NCBI GenBank assembly: GCA_000165345.1
Contig: CM000436.1
Coordinates: forward strand, 832,001 to 896,000
DNA: 64,000 nucleotides
Direction of reading: 5' to 3'
Of the stretch, positions 7,372-16,670 are shown piece after piece; position 1 is the first letter of the stretch; each line of letters begins with the position of its first letter. The notes under the pieces are model-generated. The model searched no databases and was not told the origin of the DNA. It saw only the letters and a list, made by a program, of their open reading frames with translations. Made by a program: the position numbers and the translations under genes.

Positions 7372-9012
7372 TTACTCAAATTTAAAATCTACATTCGAAT
7401 CAGGATTATACTTAAATTCTGGCTCAGCACTTTCAATTGTGTCAAAAATTTCTTCGTGATCATCTTCGTATTCATACGGGAAATAGGAAACAATGATATG
7501 GAATGCCTTTTCGTAAATAGCCTTTGAAGGAGCTTCTTGAAGCTTCTCAAGCCTAGATAGTCCATAAGCTTGTTCTACAAGGGCGCAATATGGATTCTCT
7601 TGAAGGCCACGTTCATGTTGCCTTATCGCACCTGTCTTTAGAATATTCTCAATTGCCTCTAGAGCTACGTTGATTACCTTCGCATCCTCAATGCTGAGCA
7701 AGTCACAAAGAGGTTTGATCACCCCCTGGCTAACTAAATATTCAATTTGTTCGACAGTGCCTCCTGTTGTCGCATTAGAAATCGCCCATGCAGCTTCCTT
7801 TTTCACATCAAACTCTGCAGTGTTTAGTAGATTAACTAATGGAACAATTAATCCGTTATCAATAATTTCTTGGATTTGTTCTTTGTTTCCTGCTGTAATA
7901 TTTGACACAGTCCAACAAGCTTCTTTCCTAATTACCTTCTTGGGAGAAGATAAAAGTTGTAAAAGGTACTTTGCAGCTCCGCATGATAGAACCATCTGAG
8001 TTTGTCTATCATCACCCGTAACAATATTTCCAACACACCTAAGTGCAGGAGTCTGAACAAGGGGTGATGGATGGCCCAAAAGCTCTACAAGTCTGGGGCA
8101 TGCTTCGCTCCTTAGTACCGCCTCAACACGATCATTGGGCCCATCTGAGATATAACTAAGCGCCCAACAAGCATCTGTCATAACTTCCAAGTCAGAAAAA
8201 TATAAAAGTCTACATAGCACTGGTAGTGAGTGAGACACCATTTCGAATGGTGGCGGTGGCCTACCTCTACAAAGGTTGTTAACCGTCCAAGTTGCTGTCC
8301 TTAGTATGCTGGTCTTACCACTAACCTTGCCACCTACTGTACTCGGTGATTTTACATTCATCATTTGTTCGTTGTTGTCCAATGGGCCTATTTCTAGCGC
8401 AATTAATTGTAGGATTGGTGGAAGCGCACCTGCTCTCAATACTAGATCACGGCAATTCGCAGAATCACCCGCTATATTACCGAGCGTCCAAATAGCTTGT
8501 TCTTTAACTTCAAGTTTTGGACTATTTAAAAGTTCAACACATTTTGGAATCGATCCGTGTCTAACAACTTCACAAGTTTGCTCAGTAGTACCAGACGATA
8601 TATTTGTTAAAGTCCATGCAGCTTCGAACTGAAGATTTGGGTGGTCATAATCACTTAAAAAGTGAACCAAACGAGGGATCACCCCAGCGTCAATAACTGC
8701 CTGAATTGGTGGGTTGTGCTCTCTAGAAAGCAGTCTTCTTAAGCCTTGTGTTGCTTCAAACTGAGTAGTGAATTCTTGACTCATTATTCCCTGAGATAAT
8801 GCCGGAATATGCTCAACACCGTACATATTTCCTGATTGGATATTCATACCCATAGATATATCATTATTTTCACCATCGTTTCCTTGACGTCTCTTACTAA
8901 GTTGTTCATCACGTTGTTGTTTTCGAATTTGCGCTTGCTGTTCTTCACGCTTCCTTCTAGGGTCATCAAAGGTCTTTTTATAAGCCTTCTTATGGGTTTC
9001 CAACTTATCCAT
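7372..9012 (-). CDS. importin alpha (karyopherin alpha) with N-terminal IBB domain and armadillo repeats
   Basis: The N-terminus has a basic IBB-like segment (DPRRKREEQQAQIRKQQRDEQLSKRRQ). It is followed by a classic ARM repeat series (TWTLTNISSG, WALSYISDGPND, WTVSNITAGN, WAISNATTGG). Confidence 0.9.
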   Translation of the reverse strand: MDKLETHKKAYKKTFDDPRRKREEQQAQIRKQQRDEQLSKRRQGNDGENNDISMGMNIQSGNMYGVEHIPALSQGIMSQEFTTQFEATQGLRRLLSREHNPPIQAVIDAGVIPRLVHFLSDYDHPNLQFEAAWTLTNISSGTTEQTCEVVRHGSIPKCVELLNSPKLEVKEQAIWTLGNIAGDSANCRDLVLRAGALPPILQLIALEIGPLDNNEQMMNVKSPSTVGGKVSGKTSILRTATWTVNNLCRGRPPPPFEMVSHSLPVLCRLLYFSDLEVMTDACWALSYISDGPNDRVEAVLRSEACPRLVELLGHPSPLVQTPALRCVGNIVTGDDRQTQMVLSCGAAKYLLQLLSSPKKVIRKEACWTVSNITAGNKEQIQEIIDNGLIVPLVNLLNTAEFDVKKEAAWAISNATTGGTVEQIEYLVSQGVIKPLCDLLSIEDAKVINVALEAIENILKTGAIRQHERGLQENPYCALVEQAYGLSRLEKLQEAPSKAIYEKAFHIIVSYFPYEYEDDHEEIFDTIESAEPEFKYNPDSNVDFKFE

Positions 9013-9279
9013 TGTCGCTATTATCCCAATTTATAATATTTTTTTTAACCCACAGTTAACTATTACTCTCACTTACTTAAAAAAGTGGAATTTTGTGGCG
9101 GCAGTTTATTCCCGCATGAATGAATTTTTATCCATCTTAATCAATATACGACTCATTGAAAAATAATTTTGTATAAATACTAAAAAATTTAAATATACAT
9201 CAAGTACAATTCACACCGCCAAGTCTATCTCGATTATAAAATAATTTGTAACTTTATTATTTGATTTTGTTAATTAATA

Positions 9280-9701
9280 ATGAAGGATGTATCTGCTATA
9301 AGTGGATTGATGGGTTCATACCTTCTAAAAGGATGGATAATGTTAGGCGATGCTTGCCCATCTGTAAGTATCAAATAAATTCAAAATATTCTTAACTCAG
9401 CTAGTGTGAAGAGGTACCTTTATTAGAAGATCCTTCGAATGGACTGAAGTATTGTATGAAATGCTCTCCTCCAATGATATCCAGTAGAAGCTCAAATAAT
9501 AAATTAGCTGAATCGTTAAGCAACGAAGAAAAACTGAATATGTTCACTAATATCGAAGCAGACTGCACTAATAAAGAAAGTGGTAAAATAACAATTAAAA
9601 ACACTCTCGAAGAAAACGTTAACCATATGGTAGTTGAAATATCAAAAATAGGTGTGAGCGCATTAAACAGCGCAGATTTTAGTATAGAGAGGAGGTAAGT
9701 T
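9280..9701 (+). CDS. SSSCA1/autoantigen-p27-like zinc-ribbon protein, 2 exons (9280..9363, 9414..9701)
   Basis: Exon 1 MKDVSAISGLMGSYLLKGWIMLGDACPS ends at a GTAAGT donor. Using an AG acceptor at 9412-13 gives VPLLEDPSNGLKYCMKC..., in frame with track ORF 9456..9698. The join aligns to human SSSCA1 (ISRLMGDYLLRGYRMLGETCADCGTILLQDKQRKIYCVAC) with identical spacing. The 50-nt intron has a weak polypyrimidine tract. Confidence 0.55.
9364..9413 (+). other. intron (50 nt) of SSSCA1-like gene
   Basis: GTAAGT donor at 9364 and AG at 9412-13. The placement is chosen by homology and frame. Confidence 0.45.
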
Positions 9702-9868
9702 ATTTTTTTTCTTAAACTACGGTTAATTGCTTAAAGACTAGATATTGTTGACAAGGCGGCAAACACCATACACAAATTACTTAGCATCTATATGCTCGAC
9801 TATAAATAATGTATGTAATTGGCTCTAATTATTTCTGAAATTAAACTGGAATATTTGCACCTAACGGG

Positions 9869-11734
9869 CTATTTTTCATCTCTTTGTTGAGCAGCTTTAA
9901 TGAACGCCTCTTCAACTTTTCTTCTTGCATCCGGTTTATCGCCTTTTTCTTCTCTCTGTTGATTTGAATCGTTTGCTACAGATTGAAAAATTGAGCCAAG
10001 TTCTATGAGAGCTAGTGCCCTTTGCTTTCTTGTATTTAGATCAACTCCCATATCTTTCACTAGTTTCTTAGCAACTGTCCTGATTGTATCTTCAATGTCC
10101 ATTATTGTGATCTGAAGCATTGTATCCAATATAAGTGGTAACGTCTCTTCGAACTGCTGTTGTGTTCTTGCTGATTCCTCTGCATCTTGTTCCAAATTAG
10201 ATTCATAGGTGCGTTCATTTTCTGCAGTTCCACTGGATTTTTTTTTAATAGACGACTGCAGACTTTGAGCTGCCATAGCTGTTCTAATTGCAGTAGATGC
10301 CATTTTCCAAGTAGATGCAACATTCCTTGTCTTTGCTTGAAACTTGGCATACTTACCTCCTATTCCAAGAAAGGTGTCAATTTTTCCTAAGTATTGAGAA
10401 CCATAATTTTCATAGCTCCAGCCAATTGCCTCAACCATTGCGTCACAAAACGAATCGTTACATAAACTTTTTGCTTCTTGAGAAATCGATTCTCTCCAAT
10501 TAATAAGAATCTCTGAAGTTTCAATTGGAACTGATTTTTCAGCATCAAACTCTTGCAGTATAGGAGTAATTATCTTTCTCATTTCTATTGCGAGTAAAAT
10601 TGTTCTTTTATTTTGTTCGTTTTCAATTGCTTGCTCCATCTCTATTGAATTTCCAGCACCATTTTGACCATTATTGGTGGAGGCAATTTCAACAAGAGAA
10701 ACCATCTTCAGTTTGCCTACATACTTTTCTAAACTATCAGACCCAAATAAAATTGTGAAAATCAAATTCGAATCAATAACGGGCATATCATAAGTAGCAC
10801 CAATTCCATATTCATCATATCTTTTCCTGCGTTCAGGATCAGCAAGTATTTGATAAGCTTCGCCCAACTTTTGAAATTTATCTTTTGCGTCTGCATCATC
10901 AGGATTTTTATCTGGATGGTACTGCTTTGCCTTCCTGTAATATTGTCGTCGAATTTCATCTGCATCTGCATTTGGCGAAACAGATAACAAATCATAATAA
11001 GTTGTATCTACAACATTTTTTGAATCTAAATTTATTGATTCTTTTTTATCATAATCACTAGCTTCATAATTATCATTTTTTTGTGAATATTTTATTTCCT
11101 TTTCCTTAAGTCGCTGAATTTCATCATCTAACGAATAGTAATATTCAATCCACTGTCTGTTTTTTTTGTCCCATTTCCTCCCCTTATTACTTTCAGTTAT
11201 GGCCTCTGGAGTATTCGCTACTCCCCTCGCCATTTGGTATCCGGCAACTCCAACAGCAGTTACAGGTAATGCAACTGCTGCAACTAAACCAGCGCCCATT
11301 CCTTTGAAAAACCCAGATACACCTTCGGTAGCAGCTCCGACCACAGGTGCGGCGACTAATGTTGCAACACCAGCTGCAACGCCCTTCCCCACTGTCTTCA
11401 TTCCGCTGCTAAACCCTGCCATTGCATCTCTCGGCCGTCTTGTTGAAAACAAGCCACCCAAAACACCTTCATCGCTATATAATAAAGAGTTCATGTCTTC
11501 ACCTGAAATATTCCTAGATCCTGACTGAATAGCTAATTGATACCAAGAAGAAGTTGATTCATCAAATGAAGTACTTCCAGGCTCAATTTTAGAATACCTT
11601 TGGTTATAGGGCAGCTCCTCAATATTTGCCTCGGATTTGGATCTTTCTTCAGGCCTCTCATGCTCGACTATATTCGATGAAGTAGCATCCGACAAGAATG
11701 CATTATCTTTCACATTACTTCGTTCTTGCTCCAT
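9869..11734 (-). CDS. DnaJ/Hsp40 protein with N-terminal Gly/Ala-rich hydrophobic segment, J domain and C-terminal DnaJ-X-like domain
   Basis: The J domain is DYYDLLSVSPNADADEIRRQYYRKAKQYHPDKNPDDADAKDKFQKLGEAYQILADPERRKRYDEYG, including the HPD motif. A Gly/Ala/Val-rich stretch lies upstream, and there is a long helical C-terminal extension. Confidence 0.85.
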   Translation of the reverse strand: MEQERSNVKDNAFLSDATSSNIVEHERPEERSKSEANIEELPYNQRYSKIEPGSTSFDESTSSWYQLAIQSGSRNISGEDMNSLLYSDEGVLGGLFSTRRPRDAMAGFSSGMKTVGKGVAAGVATLVAAPVVGAATEGVSGFFKGMGAGLVAAVALPVTAVGVAGYQMARGVANTPEAITESNKGRKWDKKNRQWIEYYYSLDDEIQRLKEKEIKYSQKNDNYEASDYDKKESINLDSKNVVDTTYYDLLSVSPNADADEIRRQYYRKAKQYHPDKNPDDADAKDKFQKLGEAYQILADPERRKRYDEYGIGATYDMPVIDSNLIFTILFGSDSLEKYVGKLKMVSLVEIASTNNGQNGAGNSIEMEQAIENEQNKRTILLAIEMRKIITPILQEFDAEKSVPIETSEILINWRESISQEAKSLCNDSFCDAMVEAIGWSYENYGSQYLGKIDTFLGIGGKYAKFQAKTRNVASTWKMASTAIRTAMAAQSLQSSIKKKSSGTAENERTYESNLEQDAEESARTQQQFEETLPLILDTMLQITIMDIEDTIRTVAKKLVKDMGVDLNTRKQRALALIELGSIFQSVANDSNQQREEKGDKPDARRKVEEAFIKAAQQRDEK

Positions 11735-11907
11735 TATTATTATCTGATTAAATTACTAGTTACATTATGAAGTTTAGTTGAACTTGCAAAAAAACACTCA
11801 CATTGGCGCCTAAGTATCATTATCTCGCAAGATTGTCACTAAATGCATGACTTGAAAAGATAATTACAAAAGATAATTAATTAAAAATCTTATCTATCTA
11901 TAATAAT

Positions 11908-12468
11908 CTAAAGTTTTCTGTTGATAATTGCAATATCGTCTATCGAAAGATCTCGCCCAATTAATAGTCTTTTGCTAATAGCTCTGTGTAAGCTCTATCA
12001 AAAGTTATACAGTAAATTTACATAGAAATAATCAGTAATCGACTTACAGACAACGTAAACGCTTCCCCCCTAGCTCTATCGTTTTGCTCGTCGAGAAGCT
12101 TGAATAAATCCATTAGCCACGTGTTTGGTGATTTTCCTTCATCAATGTGCCTAATGACAATCACATGAAACGTAGAATCTATTAATACTTACTTAATGAA
12201 TCCTAATGGAATTTCTTCTTTTGATAGACTTGAATCCGAAAGAATGCTTTGCGCACTAACTAACAGGTTAATATATTCCTGGCTTAAAACAAAAATGATT
12301 AATTTAAATTTTAAGTAATAAAACTTACACATCGTTTTTCAATTTGTTTGAACTATCTGTATTTTTATGGCTACTAGAGATAACTATTTCGTTAGTAATG
12401 GTTGTTAAGTTTCTTATAATGTTAATGTAGCACTCTAAGAGAGGGTCTATAGATACCTTGTTCTCCAT
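11908..12468 (-). CDS. MED10: Mediator complex subunit 10 (MED10/NUT2) homologue, 5 exons: 12457..12468, 12329..12352, 12193..12278, 12048..12150, 11908..11994
   Basis: The gene is not in the ORF track. Four short introns of 104, 50, 42 and 53 nt have GTAAGT or GTATCT donors and AG acceptors. Splicing yields the 104-aa protein MENKFKQIEKRCEYINLLVSAQSILSDSSLSKEEIPLGFIKHIDEGKSPNTWLMDLFKLLDEQNDRARGEAFTLSSLHRAISKRLLIGRDLSIDDIAIINRKL. This aligns along its length to human MED10 (MAEKFDHLEEHLEKFVENIRQLGII...VPLEVFEYIDQGRNPQLYTKECLERALAKNEQVKGKIDTMKKFKSLL). Confidence 0.6.
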
Positions 12469-12563
12469 TCTTCCTATATTAATTCTGCAAATGGCTTAAC
12501 TCTTGATATATTTTAATATACAAAAATTAATCGGCAAATTGCCACGCGAAAAAAAAAACCTTT

Positions 12564-15050
12564 TTATTCAGATATTTTTGATTTAATAAATTTCATAAAG
12601 CGCATAGAATATTTATCTGGTGGAACCGCTGAAATGCCGTTTGATGATCCAATAATGATTGCTTTGTAAAGTCTTTCAAACTTCTTAATGGTGCTCCAGG
12701 TTGAGAAAAAGTCAATAAATCCCAGGTAATAAACTTTCTTTTGATCAGAAGAGAGAATTCCAACGAACTTTCTATTATTCTTATTTTCAATAAGAGACTT
12801 GATGTTCATGGCGTCATCCTGCACATAATGTATTCCAATCAGGAGCGAATAATCCATTATGTTATAAAGTTCAAAAAATTTACAGTCTACTTCTAGTTGC
12901 TTTAGCAAATCTATTTGATCTTGCTGATTAATGTGCAACATTTCCTTATTATTCTTCATGTCCAACTCTTTTAAAGCAATAGTCTTATCTTCCTGAAGAA
13001 TTAAAGGCGTCGACCTTCCAATCCAGCTTCCCTTTATATCGTATCTTCTATGTATTTCAACGGGAGTATGAAAAATATTCTCCATTACAATGAAAAAAAT
13101 TTTGTGTATCTTGCTTTTCCTTAATATTGAATTGCCATTACTCGAAATTTGTTCCCTAATTGTATTGAATGGTTGAAGTAGAGGCTTTTTAAATCTAAGA
13201 GCATGAAGCCCATATATTCTCGTTATTAAACTGTTCTGGTTGCTTTTAATATGGTTAAAATACTTGCTCAATATGCTTCTAAAGAACACTGCCGTCTTTT
13301 TTCCCACAGTTTTTATTAAAAATCTACCGTCTGTAGTATAGTAGAAAAATGCACCAGACTTTCCTTCGCTACATAATTCATTCATTGAAGACAAATTTCC
13401 CAATACCATATTTCCCAATAACTGTTCTGGGCCAACGCTTCTTACATATGATTCAGGAGAAATATTGCATATTTCGCGGATCTTTCTGAATACCATGGGA
13501 TTATAATCAATAAACTGTACAGGCTTCATGAATCCTCTATAATCATTTGACTTTTGAATTAAAACATTTGATTTAGTGTTTGATTCCCTTGAAGTCCTGG
13601 GAATTATAAAAAACTTTTCTTTCATTATAAAGTCATAATCTGCGACATCTCGGTTCGGTTCTGAATAAACTCTCCCAATTGCCAGCCTCATTCCAACCAT
13701 CATATTCAATACTGTATTCCAACTTTCATGGCCAATGTAAACTGCATATCCCTTCGTTATTTTCACTACAGGAACATTTATACCACTTATCGTGGGTGTT
13801 TCCTTTTCAGAATGAGAATGTTTGGACTTTATTGAAGATACATTTGCCCTGGAACCCTTCACTTTAATTTTACTTGATGTCTTTGCCATATTTTGGAATC
13901 CTCTGCTAATATTGCTTCTGCGCCTATAAGTGTGTATCAAGGAGACTCGCTTCCGATTATTAGAACAATAGCTGTTCCTAGTATAATCAAGGGTACTGCT
14001 CGACTTATGCATAAACGTTTTCTTAATCATTTCGCTTGCAGACATACGATGTTTAGTATTCGGAGCAACATTACCTTTATTAATGTACATTTTCCTTCGA
14101 TTATAAACTTTTTTTATTATTCCCAAATTGAAATTGTTATATGTTACGATTTGAGATGGTGGCACCATATTCTGCAAAGAATAGATACTTTTTTTGCAAA
14201 TTGAATCGAGCATCTCAATATTATTATTCAATACACTTTTAAGCAAGAGCATGTCATGAGTAAATATTTTTACTATGCTATTAGTATCAGTAAAATTTTG
14301 AGCTTCAAACATATTTGTGCTTTTATTGATATCAAAAAGCATACAATTTAATAAATTATTTTCATTTGGGCTACGAATCCATTTTTCTAGAGTGTTAAGC
14401 GAATCAGTTGTCTCTTGTTTAATGTTTTTAATGTCCTCTAAAATATTAAAGACCTGTAGTTTCAGTCGAGAAGTAAATTCCTTTTCAATAGACTCGTTAT
14501 ACTCAACTCTATCAATTGGTTGCCTATTAAAAATATTAATTCCCTCGAATATTAACGGCGATTTCCTATTTTCAATATCTAAGTCATAAGATTCAAGAAT
14601 ATTCGGGGTTATTATTCCAAAAAATGAGAGAAACTCTGGGGAGTCTTGAATAGCCGCTTTATAACTTTCAAAGTAGATTTTGGGTTCATTTTGTTCATCT
14701 TTCACTGTTGAATAGTCGTTGAAAAAATTTTTAATTTCTTGATCCGAGAAATTTAATATTTGCGGCCCAACAAGCATATATCTAGCACTATCAATTGCTC
14801 TAATAGATTTTAATAACTTCTCAAAGGTGATCCCATCACTCAAATTCATATAATTTTCTCCCTTGATTACCCTGTAGGAAAACCTTGCCTTTTCATCGAA
14901 ATTATCAGAAATCATTATCGCTAGTGCTCTACCAAACTCGTAAAAATCAAGCAAGTTATTGTTATCAGTGTCCATCGCGTTAAAAATCATTTGAGAAAGA
15001 AGCCCATCATCTAATAGCCCCAAAACGATTCTAAACCTCCGAATATCCAT
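12564..15050 (-). CDS. phosphatidylinositol-4-phosphate 5-kinase with N-terminal EF-hand module
   Basis: The PIPK catalytic core is present (GKSGAFFYYTTDGRFLIKTV, MDYSLLIGIH). The N-terminus has an EF-hand-like loop (MDTDNNNLLDFYEFGRAL). The track start at 15083 is a TTG. The first ATG (MDIRRF) is at 15050. Confidence 0.85.
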   Translation of the reverse strand: MDIRRFRIVLGLLDDGLLSQMIFNAMDTDNNNLLDFYEFGRALAIMISDNFDEKARFSYRVIKGENYMNLSDGITFEKLLKSIRAIDSARYMLVGPQILNFSDQEIKNFFNDYSTVKDEQNEPKIYFESYKAAIQDSPEFLSFFGIITPNILESYDLDIENRKSPLIFEGINIFNRQPIDRVEYNESIEKEFTSRLKLQVFNILEDIKNIKQETTDSLNTLEKWIRSPNENNLLNCMLFDINKSTNMFEAQNFTDTNSIVKIFTHDMLLLKSVLNNNIEMLDSICKKSIYSLQNMVPPSQIVTYNNFNLGIIKKVYNRRKMYINKGNVAPNTKHRMSASEMIKKTFMHKSSSTLDYTRNSYCSNNRKRVSLIHTYRRRSNISRGFQNMAKTSSKIKVKGSRANVSSIKSKHSHSEKETPTISGINVPVVKITKGYAVYIGHESWNTVLNMMVGMRLAIGRVYSEPNRDVADYDFIMKEKFFIIPRTSRESNTKSNVLIQKSNDYRGFMKPVQFIDYNPMVFRKIREICNISPESYVRSVGPEQLLGNMVLGNLSSMNELCSEGKSGAFFYYTTDGRFLIKTVGKKTAVFFRSILSKYFNHIKSNQNSLITRIYGLHALRFKKPLLQPFNTIREQISSNGNSILRKSKIHKIFFIVMENIFHTPVEIHRRYDIKGSWIGRSTPLILQEDKTIALKELDMKNNKEMLHINQQDQIDLLKQLEVDCKFFELYNIMDYSLLIGIHYVQDDAMNIKSLIENKNNRKFVGILSSDQKKVYYLGFIDFFSTWSTIKKFERLYKAIIIGSSNGISAVPPDKYSMRFMKFIKSKISE

Positions 15051-15562
15051 GAATCCTAGTGTGTGATGTCGAGATAAAATCAATTCAAATTTATTTTGGC
15101 ATTTAATATATATAAATATATATCATTATAGTTACGAAATACTAATATTAAAGAGTTAATAATATAACTTACCATTATCTGAGTTTGAGATAAATGTATT
15201 GTAAAAATCCCTAATTTGCTTTGTGGATAGGTTTGTCTCATTTTGGATTTTTGTAAAAATATCTTGTTTTAATTTGAAACTTGAACATTTCCTAAAGAAA
15301 ATTTTGATTTTATGCATTTGTTCAAATAATAGTTACTATATATAGCATATCAAAAATCGAATGTATAACTTTCGATCAAACAGAATTATTAGATATAAAT
15401 CAATACAAGTAAAAGATATTTGAAACTCATTGCGCGGGAGAAAAGCTCAGAAACATGTAAATATTTCGAGAAATTAAGAGAAAATGACAAACAATTATTT
15501 AAGTTAATAGTAGATATGCTACATCAAAATTTGTCACATTGAGTTCAAGTATATCACAATAG

Positions 15563-16670
15563 TTACTTTGTGTCATATCTGTTCGTAAGTGACGTTCTCT
15601 CTTCCTGAATTGTTTTGGATTTGTTAAATTGAACTGGTTTTTTACTTGCAATAATATGGTACTGGCCTTCGCCTCTTATCATAGCGTTTAGTGGTATCCT
15701 CACGGTTTGACTATTTACAAGCCACATTAGAGCTCTTCCAATGTAACTTGAAGAACTTTTGGAATTAACCTAATTTTCATTAGTTAAAAAAAACATGTTT
15801 ATGTAATGACTTACCTTGGATAAAAAAGGCTCTACTTCCGTCTTCAAAGAATAAATGACGTTGGTAGTAATATTGAATTGCTTAATAATTTGGAATCCAG
15901 TATTTGCAATTGTATCCTAATCTAGTATTGAATGAAGATTCCTTAATATTTTGCAAGCTTACCTTTATATCTGGCCAGGCAATTGTGGGCGAAATATCTG
16001 CGAAGAGCATCATTCCACCTGGTTTAAGTAAGTCAAAAACTCCCTTTACAAACTTGTCAAAATTTGGATAACAGTGAGCGGACTCAACATTCAACACAAT
16101 GTCAAAAGATTCAGGCGCAAAGTAATTTTCAAGTTCCATACTGCTTCCAACATAAAATACTTTATTTCCAGCAGGAATCAAATCATTCCTATATATTTGT
16201 CTGCATAATTCAATCCCCTGATCACTAATATCAATCCCAGCATAAGACATCGGTTCAGCAACACTGCAAACTACAACCGAGCCTCCCCCTCTTCCGCAGC
16301 CTACCTCTAAGATGGATTTACCTTTGAAGTCATCATCATAAGTAGATAGAACTGCGGTATAAAGCTGCACTGAGTTCCAAACATCATTAAAGTTTGGCGG
16401 GGATTCTTTCTTTAACTTTTCCAATTTAGACTCGATAAATTTATCTAGCTCCGAATTTTCAGGAGGGCTATGAGGAGTTTTAATTGCATAGCCATAGTTC
16501 ATAAATGAGACATCAATGTTAGAAGTGTACTGTAACTTTGTAAATAGTGAATTGCAAGCATTATAACAAAATCTCCAAAATGACGGAGCAATGTTCAATA
16601 ACGACTTAAGGTGCCAATAAGTTAGCCAAACGAAGGTTAGTATTGAATCAATTACTGTAAGTATTTTCAT
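15563..16670 (-). CDS. membrane-anchored class I SAM-dependent methyltransferase (ERG6/SMT-like motifs), probable 3 exons: 15963..16670, 15815..15880, 15563..15769
   Basis: An N-terminal TM helix (ILTVIDSILTFVWLTYW) follows the first ATG at 16670. The track start at 16757 is a GTG. Motif I is ILEVGCGRGGGS, and a later FDIVLNVESAHCYPNFDKFVKGVFDLLKPGG segment is also present. After WPDIK there is an in-frame GTAAGC, then a second GTAAGT donor, and a 69-codon open 3' exon ending ...GQYHIIASKKP.... The single-exon alternative ends at 15882. Confidence 0.55.
15770..15814 (-). other. putative intron (45 nt) of methyltransferase gene
   Basis: GTAAGT donor and ...aaaattag acceptor. The flanking exons are both open and in frame. 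Confidence 0.45.
15881..15962 (-). other. putative intron (82 nt) of methyltransferase gene
   Basis: GTAAGC donor directly after ...WPDIK. The acceptor ttattaag is the weaker of the two sites. Confidence 0.35.

What the first reader, a model, noticed from the sequence alone, without database searches (positions are those of the whole stretch)
11908..12468. Unannotated 5-exon MED10 gene hidden in an apparent intergenic gap
The six-frame track shows nothing here because no exon exceeds 35 codons. Joining five exons across four GT...AG introns of 42-104 nt gives a 104-aa protein. It aligns end to end with Mediator subunit 10, with an MxxKF start and a conserved IPLxxFxxIDEGKxPNxW block. Four introns in a 104-aa gene is striking in a genome where most neighbouring genes are intronless. 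Automated annotation easily misses it.
Basis: partly seen in the sequence, partly recalled or inferred. Interest (0 to 1): 0.5.

Follow-up and report, generated by a model that had tools for sequence, protein, structure and literature searches.

The report
Already annotated Cryptosporidium Med10 gene
The stretch holds a real, short, spliced gene for Mediator subunit 10 of Cryptosporidium parvum, but it has 4 exons and 139 amino acids rather than 5 exons and 104, and public annotations already carry exactly this gene, so it is ordinary.

Summary
Window 11908..12468 (minus strand) does encode Mediator subunit Med10. The window is Cryptosporidium parvum chromosome 8: 8.5 kb around the gene is identical to CP044415.1.

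Its first "intron" (12456..12353, 104 nt) is coding sequence, and its next acceptor is 4 nt off.

The supported model has 4 exons (140, 90, 103 and 87 nt) and 3 GTAAGT...AG introns (46, 42 and 53 nt), giving 139 aa.
- This protein is residue-for-residue identical to four deposited C. parvum proteins, three accessions named Med10, the fourth entry "hypothetical protein CPHLJ_8g3275".
- Five other Cryptosporidium species support it.
- A profile built only from gregarine and Colpodella Med10 proteins scores it 78.5 bits; 2,000 shuffled sequences reach at most 7.1.

So the Med10 identification is right, the gene structure is partly wrong, and "unannotated" is wrong for current public records. Three introns in a 139-aa gene is above average for this intron-poor genome but within its published range. 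I found nothing novel.

The parts
12329..12468 (-). Exon 1 (140 nt; ATG at 12468..12466). Encodes residues 1-46 plus the first two bases of codon 47, i.e. the N-terminal helix of Med10.
   Evidence: It is an uninterrupted ORF with a constant length of 140 nt in five intestinal Cryptosporidium species. Variable columns by codon position are 22/17/35. It raises the Pfam Med10 score from 24.9 to 33.9 bits.
12353..12456 (-). This is coding sequence inside exon 1, not an intron.
   Evidence: No indels in five species, and variable columns by codon position of 14/11/28. The acceptor AG is AA in C. ubiquitum, C. canis and C. felis, and the donor GT is GC in C. canis. It has no stop in the ATG frame and GC 0.31. 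Exon-1-only ORFs from two further Cryptosporidium assemblies (P0011, P0014) read straight through it.
12283..12328 (-). Intron 1 (46 nt, GTAAGT...AAG, phase 2).
   Evidence: It is part of the only GT..AG combination that yields the deposited protein. The donor GTA[A/C]GT and an acceptor AG at this position are kept in all species. The alternative donor at 12330 and acceptor at 12279 are lost in C. felis, and the acceptor also in C. ubiquitum. Its length is 44-47 nt in four other intestinal species and 84 nt in C. muris. GC is 0.13, and there are stops in two of three frames.
12193..12282 (-). Exon 2 (90 nt).
   Evidence: Its length is 90 nt in all six species, including C. muris. It encodes ...LSKEEIPLGFI and the first two bases of the K codon.
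12151..12192 (-). Intron 2 (42 nt, GTAAGT...TAG, phase 2). It splits the conserved IPLGFIK|HIDEGKSPNTW block.
   Evidence: The splice sites are conserved and the length is 42-58 nt across species. There are stops in all three frames. The Med10 signature motif is restored only by this splice.
12048..12150 (-). Exon 3 (103 nt).
   Evidence: Its length is 103 nt in all six species. It encodes HIDEGKSPNTWLMDLFKLLDEQNDRARGEAFTLS, the best-conserved part of the family.
11995..12047 (-). Intron 3 (53 nt, GTAAGT...TAG, phase 0).
   Evidence: GTAAGT and a terminal AG (TAG in five species, CAG in C. muris) are kept in all six species. The length is 46-53 nt, including a 7-nt deletion in the 95%-identical species. 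There are stops in all frames.
11908..11994 (-). Exon 4 (87 nt including the stop TAG at 11910..11908).
   Evidence: It completes the 139-aa protein, which is identical to the deposited C. parvum Med10. The C-terminal length varies between species (87-129 nt).

Best explanation
This is the single-copy Cryptosporidium parvum gene for Med10, a subunit of the Middle module of the Mediator complex.

Structure (shown here): it lies on the minus strand at 12468..11908. It is built from four exons joined by removing three very short spliceosomal introns (46, 42 and 53 nt, each GTAAGT...AG), giving a 139-residue, all-helical protein.

Function (inferred from family membership, not tested here): the protein assembles with other Middle-module subunits and Med14. 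It thereby helps Mediator bridge DNA-bound regulators and RNA polymerase II.

The gene is already in public annotations with this exact structure.
For: Identity to deposited records:
- The spliced product is identical to QOY40091.1, WKS79586.1, WRK34089.1 and KAL5367067.1 from C. parvum.
- 8,561 bases of the window are identical to CP044415.1:831467-840027, where a 139-aa Med10 gene is called over the same 561 nt.

Family membership:
- Pfam PF09748 Med10 scores 33.9 bits, E = 3.2e-8, against a cut-off of 23.3.
- Profile searches of PDB sequences return Med10 as the top hit: yeast 5oqm_k at E = 3.9e-5 with the 7-sequence profile.
- With the 16-sequence profile the five best hits are all Med10: yeast 5oqm_k E = 1.1e-6, human 7emf_J E = 0.007, 8t1i_G, S. 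pombe 5n9j_B and 6w1s_G.
- All eight distant relatives I tested, found by an exhaustive profile search, pass the Pfam Med10 cut-off themselves. The four of them whose source I looked up are gregarines and Colpodella.
- A profile built only from those non-Cryptosporidium proteins scores the 139-aa product 78.5 bits, against at most 7.1 for 2,000 shuffles.
- The AlphaFold model (pLDDT 73) is all-helical. Its four best PDB fold matches are chains of yeast and human Mediator entries that hold Med10, with probability 0.90-0.99.

Gene structure:
- In six species there is a unique GT..AG solution with internal exons of 90 and 103 nt.
- Intron lengths vary by amounts that are not multiples of three.
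- The splice sites are conserved, and so is PIP5K-Med10-DnaJ gene order.
- Intron GC is 0.22 against exon GC 0.355. The published C. parvum intron GC is 22% (PMC4637869).

Biological role:
- Med10 is described as a universal Middle-module subunit that is essential in yeast, and C. parvum was among the species examined (PMC2475620).
Against: - I had no transcript evidence (RNA-seq or cDNA), so splicing is inferred from comparative data and from deposited annotations, which may partly derive from one another.
- The intron 1 acceptor in C. parvum is AAG, a weaker acceptor than the CAG 4 nt downstream. Minor use of another site cannot be excluded.
- Fold matches have low TM-scores (about 0.36) and weak E-values (0.02). 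This is expected for an elongated helical subunit modelled without partners, but it is not strong on its own.
- No Mediator complex has been purified from Cryptosporidium as far as the searched literature shows.
Confidence: 0.93

Rival explanations
1. One reading: five exons and four introns (104, 50, 42 and 53 nt) giving a 103-aa Med10 that starts MENKF.
For: The model is open and in frame, all its introns have GT...AG ends, and it passes the Pfam Med10 cut-off at 24.9 bits.
Against: - Its 104-nt 'intron' behaves as coding sequence. It has no indels, substitutions biased to the third codon position, and an open frame.
- Its splice sites are lost in C. ubiquitum, C. canis and C. felis.
- Its second acceptor (12279) is AA in C. 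ubiquitum and C. felis.
- It scores lower than the 139-aa model against Pfam and against the gregarine/Colpodella profile (73.6 against 78.5 bits).
- The removed residues align with the N-terminal helix of transcript-derived gregarine and Colpodella Med10.
- This sequence is absent from a collection of 15 billion proteins, whereas the 139-aa one is present four times.
Confidence: 0.02
2. Intron 1 uses the shifted pair GT at 12330 and CAG at 12279 (52 nt), giving a 137-aa protein without Val47-Gln48, either as the main form or as a minor isoform.
For: It is in frame and has a stronger CAG acceptor in C. parvum. It still passes Pfam Med10 at 29.4 bits.
Against: The donor GT is TC in C. felis, and the acceptor AG is AA in C. 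ubiquitum and C. felis, whereas GTA[A/C]GT at 12328 and the AG at 12283 are kept in all species. It scores lower than the 139-aa model (29.4 against 33.9 bits; 72.2 against 78.5). It is not in the protein collection.
Confidence: 0.03
3. The locus is a decaying or unexpressed relic (pseudogene) that only resembles Med10.
For: No expression data were available to me, and the exons are short.
Against: The reading frame, exon lengths and splice sites are kept in six species spanning the genus, including C. muris. Substitutions are biased to the third codon position. Gene order is conserved. Med10 is described as a universal core subunit, essential in yeast (PMC2475620).
Confidence: 0.02

Closest known systems
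Cryptosporidium parvum Med10 as deposited (QOY40091.1 on CP044415.1, IOWA-ATCC; also WKS79586.1, WRK34089.1, KAL5367067.1 / CPHLJ_8g3275)
   Same: The protein is 100% identical over all 139 residues, the gene span is the same 561 nt, and the surrounding DNA is identical.
   Different: Nothing. This is the same gene.
Med10 orthologues in other Cryptosporidium species (C. tyzzeri 98%, C. hominis 96%, C. ubiquitum 80%, C. canis 76%, C. felis 63-65%, C. muris 42%)
   Same: They share the four-exon structure with internal exons of 90 and 103 nt, the three intron positions, and the flanking genes PIP5K and DnaJ.
   Different: Intron lengths range from 42 to 84 nt, C-terminal tails differ in length, and C. 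muris has a longer exon 1 (161 nt).
Yeast Med10/Nut2 (PDB 5oqm chain k) and human MED10 (PDB 7emf chain J); Pfam PF09748
   Same: The length is similar (135-157 aa) and the protein is all-helical. The central motif is shared: (I/V)PL...(I/V)(D/E)xG(K/R)xP followed by a long helix. The alignment covers yeast residues 25-144 of 157.
   Different: Identity is only about 15-18%. The apicomplexan and gregarine clade has its own signature, PLGLIxHxDxGxSPNxWL...ENDxARGE. Incorporation into a Mediator complex is untested in Cryptosporidium.

Membership tests
Mediator subunit Med10 (Pfam PF09748) | Sequence matches the curated family profile above its gathering score | tested here: met
33.9 bits, E = 3.2e-8, cut-off 23.3, profile positions 13-104 of 119.
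Mediator subunit Med10 (Pfam PF09748) | Best matches among experimentally solved proteins are Med10, found through a family profile | tested here: met
   With the 16-sequence profile the five best PDB sequences are all 'Mediator of RNA polymerase II transcription subunit 10' (yeast E = 1.1e-6, human E = 0.007, S. pombe, and two further MED10 chains). With the 7-sequence profile the best hit is yeast Med10 at E = 3.9e-5.
78.5 bits against a profile of non-Cryptosporidium Med10 proteins.
Mediator subunit Med10 (Pfam PF09748) | Med10 fold (elongated helical protein as seen in Mediator cryo-EM structures) | tested here: inconclusive
   The model has pLDDT 73.1 and helices at 7-33, 37-60, 73-80 and 85-123. 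The Foldseek top four are chains of entries that hold Med10 (7uio, 7ui9, 7nvr, 5oqm_k) with probability 0.90-0.99. However, E = 0.02-0.16 and TM is about 0.36.
Mediator subunit Med10 (Pfam PF09748) | Conserved single-copy orthologue in related genomes | tested here: met
   One syntenic copy lies between PIP5K and DnaJ in C. parvum, C. ubiquitum, C. canis, C. felis, C. muris and a 95%-identical species. Relatives occur in gregarines and Colpodella.
Mediator subunit Med10 (Pfam PF09748) | Physical membership of the Mediator Middle module (contacts with Med4, Med7, Med21, Med14) | not testable with these tools
   This needs co-purification or a structure from Cryptosporidium. I found no such study in the paper library.
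Spliceosomal (U2-type GT-AG) introns, for the three introns of the 139-aa model | GT...AG ends with a consensus-like donor, conserved at the same position in orthologues | tested here: met
   The donors are GTAAGT, GTACGT, GTGAGT or GTAAAC and every intron ends in AG, at the same positions in six species.
Spliceosomal (U2-type GT-AG) introns, for the three introns of the 139-aa model | Evolves as non-coding sequence (length changes not in multiples of three, stops, low GC) while flanking exons keep their length | tested here: met
   Intron lengths are 44-47/84, 42-58 and 46-53 nt, while internal exons are fixed at 90 and 103 nt. Intron GC is 0.22 against 0.355 for exons, and the introns contain stops.
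Spliceosomal (U2-type GT-AG) introns, for the three introns of the 139-aa model | Removal from the mRNA observed directly | not testable with these tools
   No RNA-seq or cDNA data were available. The only contigs carrying the protein are genomic and longer than 1 Mb.
   The acceptor AG is AA in three species and the donor GT is GC in C. canis. The length is 104 nt in all five species, variable columns by codon position are 14/11/28, and the frame is open.

The most novel reading that the evidence does not exclude
The three very short introns (42-84 nt) have kept their positions since the deepest sampled split in Cryptosporidium (C. muris against C. parvum), in a genome that has lost most of its introns. 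This might mean they are retained for a reason, for example splicing-dependent expression or export of a very short mRNA, rather than by chance. Separately, the apicomplexan and gregarine Med10 clade carries its own invariant signature, PLGLIxHxDxGxSPNxWL...ARGE, which could reflect a lineage-specific Mediator interface. I tested neither idea beyond position conservation and the alignment.
Probability: 0.08. Interest if true: 0.3.

Novelty: already known. Interest (0 to 1): 0.08.

Why it matters
It matters little for discovery. The gene, its exon structure and its Med10 name are already in GenBank records of C. parvum and its relatives.

The practical value is as a caution:
- Short multi-exon genes in intron-poor genomes are invisible to ORF scans.
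- They are mis-modelled in some deposited annotations, for example the C. hominis UdeA01 72-aa partial and the C. ryanae 77-aa truncation.
- Forcing a model to resemble a distant homologue (the human MAEKF start) can invent an intron that deletes 36 real codons.

Tried and rejected
- An alternative intron 1 (donor 12330, acceptor 12279, 137 aa): rejected because its sites are not conserved, it scores lower, and it is absent from databases.
- Structure from 7 close orthologues only: low confidence (pLDDT 62.4). I repeated it with 16 sequences (pLDDT 73.1).
- The fold search gave Med10 chains on top, but with weak scores, so I treat it as supporting evidence only.
- A literature search for the identifier cgd8_3275 (inferred from the CPHLJ_8g3275 locus tag) found nothing.
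- The supplement of the 2015 re-annotation paper lists cgd8_3270 and cgd8_3280 in the passage found, but has no occurrence of cgd8_3275 or Med10. I therefore could not establish when the gene first entered the C. parvum annotation.
- The supplement of Bourbon 2008, which should list the C. parvum Mediator subunits, is not held.
- A T-run plus CGCG motif upstream of the ATG is only loosely conserved, and I did not pursue it.

Full report
**What is in the sequence.** The feature lies on the minus strand. Reading 12468 down to 11908 gives an ATG followed by a 47-codon ORF, and then three further short coding stretches separated by AT-rich pieces that each begin GTAAGT and end AG. The window is AT-rich (about 33% GC) and consists mostly of long uninterrupted ORFs.

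It passes the Pfam Med10 (PF09748) cut-off only narrowly: 24.9 bits against 23.3, covering profile positions 41-104 of 119.

A simpler model keeps the whole first ORF as exon 1. Its exons are 12468-12329, 12282-12193, 12150-12048 and 11994-11908, and its introns are 46, 42 and 53 nt, all GTAAGT...AG. It gives 139 residues and scores 33.9 bits (E = 3.2e-8), covering profile positions 13-104. A third variant (donor 12330, acceptor 12279, 137 aa) scores 29.4 bits.

**It is an annotated gene of Cryptosporidium parvum.**
- The 139-aa product has a 98%-identical hit named Med10 in C. tyzzeri, and orthologues in C. ubiquitum, C. canis and C. felis.
- An exact-sequence look-up shows that the 139-aa protein is deposited under four C. 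parvum accessions: QOY40091.1, WKS79586.1, WRK34089.1 and KAL5367067.1. The names given are 'Transcription factor subunit Med10 of Mediator complex' and 'hypothetical protein CPHLJ_8g3275'.
- In three C. parvum assemblies the Med10 gene is called over exactly 561 nt, between a PIP5K gene and a DnaJ gene.
- 8,561 bases of the window are identical to CP044415.1:831467-840027 and to CP141125.1.

So 'unannotated' does not hold for current public records.

**Comparative test of the splice model.** I fetched the orthologous loci of four other intestinal species and of C. muris. PIP5K-Med10-DnaJ gene order is kept in all of them.
- In the DNA alignment every exon of the 139-aa model has the same length in all five intestinal species, apart from the variable C-terminal end. 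The three introns change length by amounts that are not multiples of three: 44-47, 42-49 and 46-53 nt.
- An exhaustive search for GT..AG combinations that reproduce each deposited protein gives one solution per species. Exons are 140/90/103/87-123 nt, and in C. muris 161/90/103/129 nt. The intron positions therefore predate the deepest split sampled.
Its variable columns fall 14/11/28 by codon position. Its AG is AA in C. ubiquitum, C. canis and C. felis, and its GT is GC in C. canis.
- The 104 + 4 nt wrongly removed equal 36 codons, which is exactly the difference between 139 and 103 residues.
- Intron GC is 0.22 and exon GC 0.355. The false intron has GC 0.31 and is open in the ATG frame. 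The published mean intron GC for C. parvum is 22% (PMC4637869).

**Is it Med10?**
- Single-sequence and profile searches of PDB sequences give yeast Med10 (5oqm_k) as the best hit: E = 2.2e-4, 3.9e-5 and 1.1e-6 with increasing profile depth. With the deepest profile the five best hits are all MED10 chains (yeast, human, S. pombe and two others), and the yeast alignment spans residues 25-144 of 157.
- An exhaustive profile search of 1.84 billion representative proteins finds only 13 relatives. Apart from Cryptosporidium sequences, these include proteins of gregarines (Lankesteria, Porospora, Blabericola) and Colpodella. All eight that I tested pass the Pfam Med10 cut-off themselves.
Two thousand shuffled sequences reach at most 7.1 bits.
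- The family alignment shows a clade signature, PLGLIxHxDxGxSPNxWL...ARGE, with P72, H78, P85, W88, L92, G105 and E106 invariant. This block is split by intron 2, so the splice is needed to restore it.
- An AlphaFold model built from 16 sequences (pLDDT 73.1) is all-helical. Its four best Foldseek matches in the PDB are chains of yeast and human Mediator entries that hold Med10, with probability 0.90-0.99. TM-scores are only about 0.36, so I count this as consistent rather than decisive.

**How it most likely works.**
- Shown: a four-exon gene encodes a conserved Med10-family protein.
- Inferred from knowledge of the family: Med10 is a Middle-module subunit. It is essential in S. cerevisiae, is described as universal, and links to Med14. 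C. parvum was among the genomes surveyed, and its Med14 homologue is described (PMC2475620).
- Not shown: splicing at the RNA level, and assembly into a Cryptosporidium Mediator.

**Is the intron count remarkable?** Published figures for C. parvum are introns in about 10.8% of genes, 2-10 exons per intron-containing gene (mean 2.6), and a mean intron length of 99 nt (PMC4637869). Three introns of 42-53 nt in a 139-codon gene is at the dense, short end, but within that range. Two near neighbours are also modelled with introns.

**Verdict.** One intron was invented and one acceptor misplaced. The gene is already known and correctly annotated, so novelty is nil and interest is low.

Noticed in passing
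window 9280..9809 (+): There is a second short multi-exon gene between the DnaJ and importin-alpha genes, matching Pfam Auto_anti-p27 (PF06677). Three C. parvum annotations give it different products (122, 138 and 148 aa), so its exon structure is unsettled. The ORF starting at ATG 9280 (MKDVSAISGLMGSYLLKGW...) is its first exon.
   Followed up: partly
window 12564..15317 (-): The PIP5K gene immediately upstream of Med10 is modelled as 828 aa in one assembly and 878 aa in two. The longer model spans more DNA than it encodes, so it needs an intron. It probably uses the 53-aa ORF at 15156..15317 as its first exon.
   Followed up: no
P0009 (C. hominis CUV07879.1), P0010 (C. ryanae KAH8739528.1), L005:1-1416 (C. 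canis): Several deposited gene models at this locus in relatives look wrong. The C. hominis UdeA01 Med10 is a 72-aa 'partial' beginning with exon 2 in the wrong frame (VSFFRIQVYQKKKF...). The C. ryanae Med10 is a 77-aa truncation lacking the first and last exons. The C. canis annotation fuses the methyltransferase and PIP5K genes into a single 1,199-aa product.
   Followed up: partly
window 12469..12563 (-): Only 95 nt separate the PIP5K stop from the Med10 ATG. This stretch holds a T10 run followed by CGCGTGGC (about 12538-12556), which resembles an E2F-type TTTSSCGC site. A T-run followed by GCG recurs in the closest species and, loosely, in C. ubiquitum and C. felis, but not in C. canis or C. 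muris.
   Followed up: partly
L001 (GCA_048859185.1, CM109968.1) vs window 7908..16468: Across 8,561 bases the window is identical to two C. parvum assemblies and differs from a third by a single base, so the locus is nearly invariant among sequenced C. parvum isolates.
   Followed up: no
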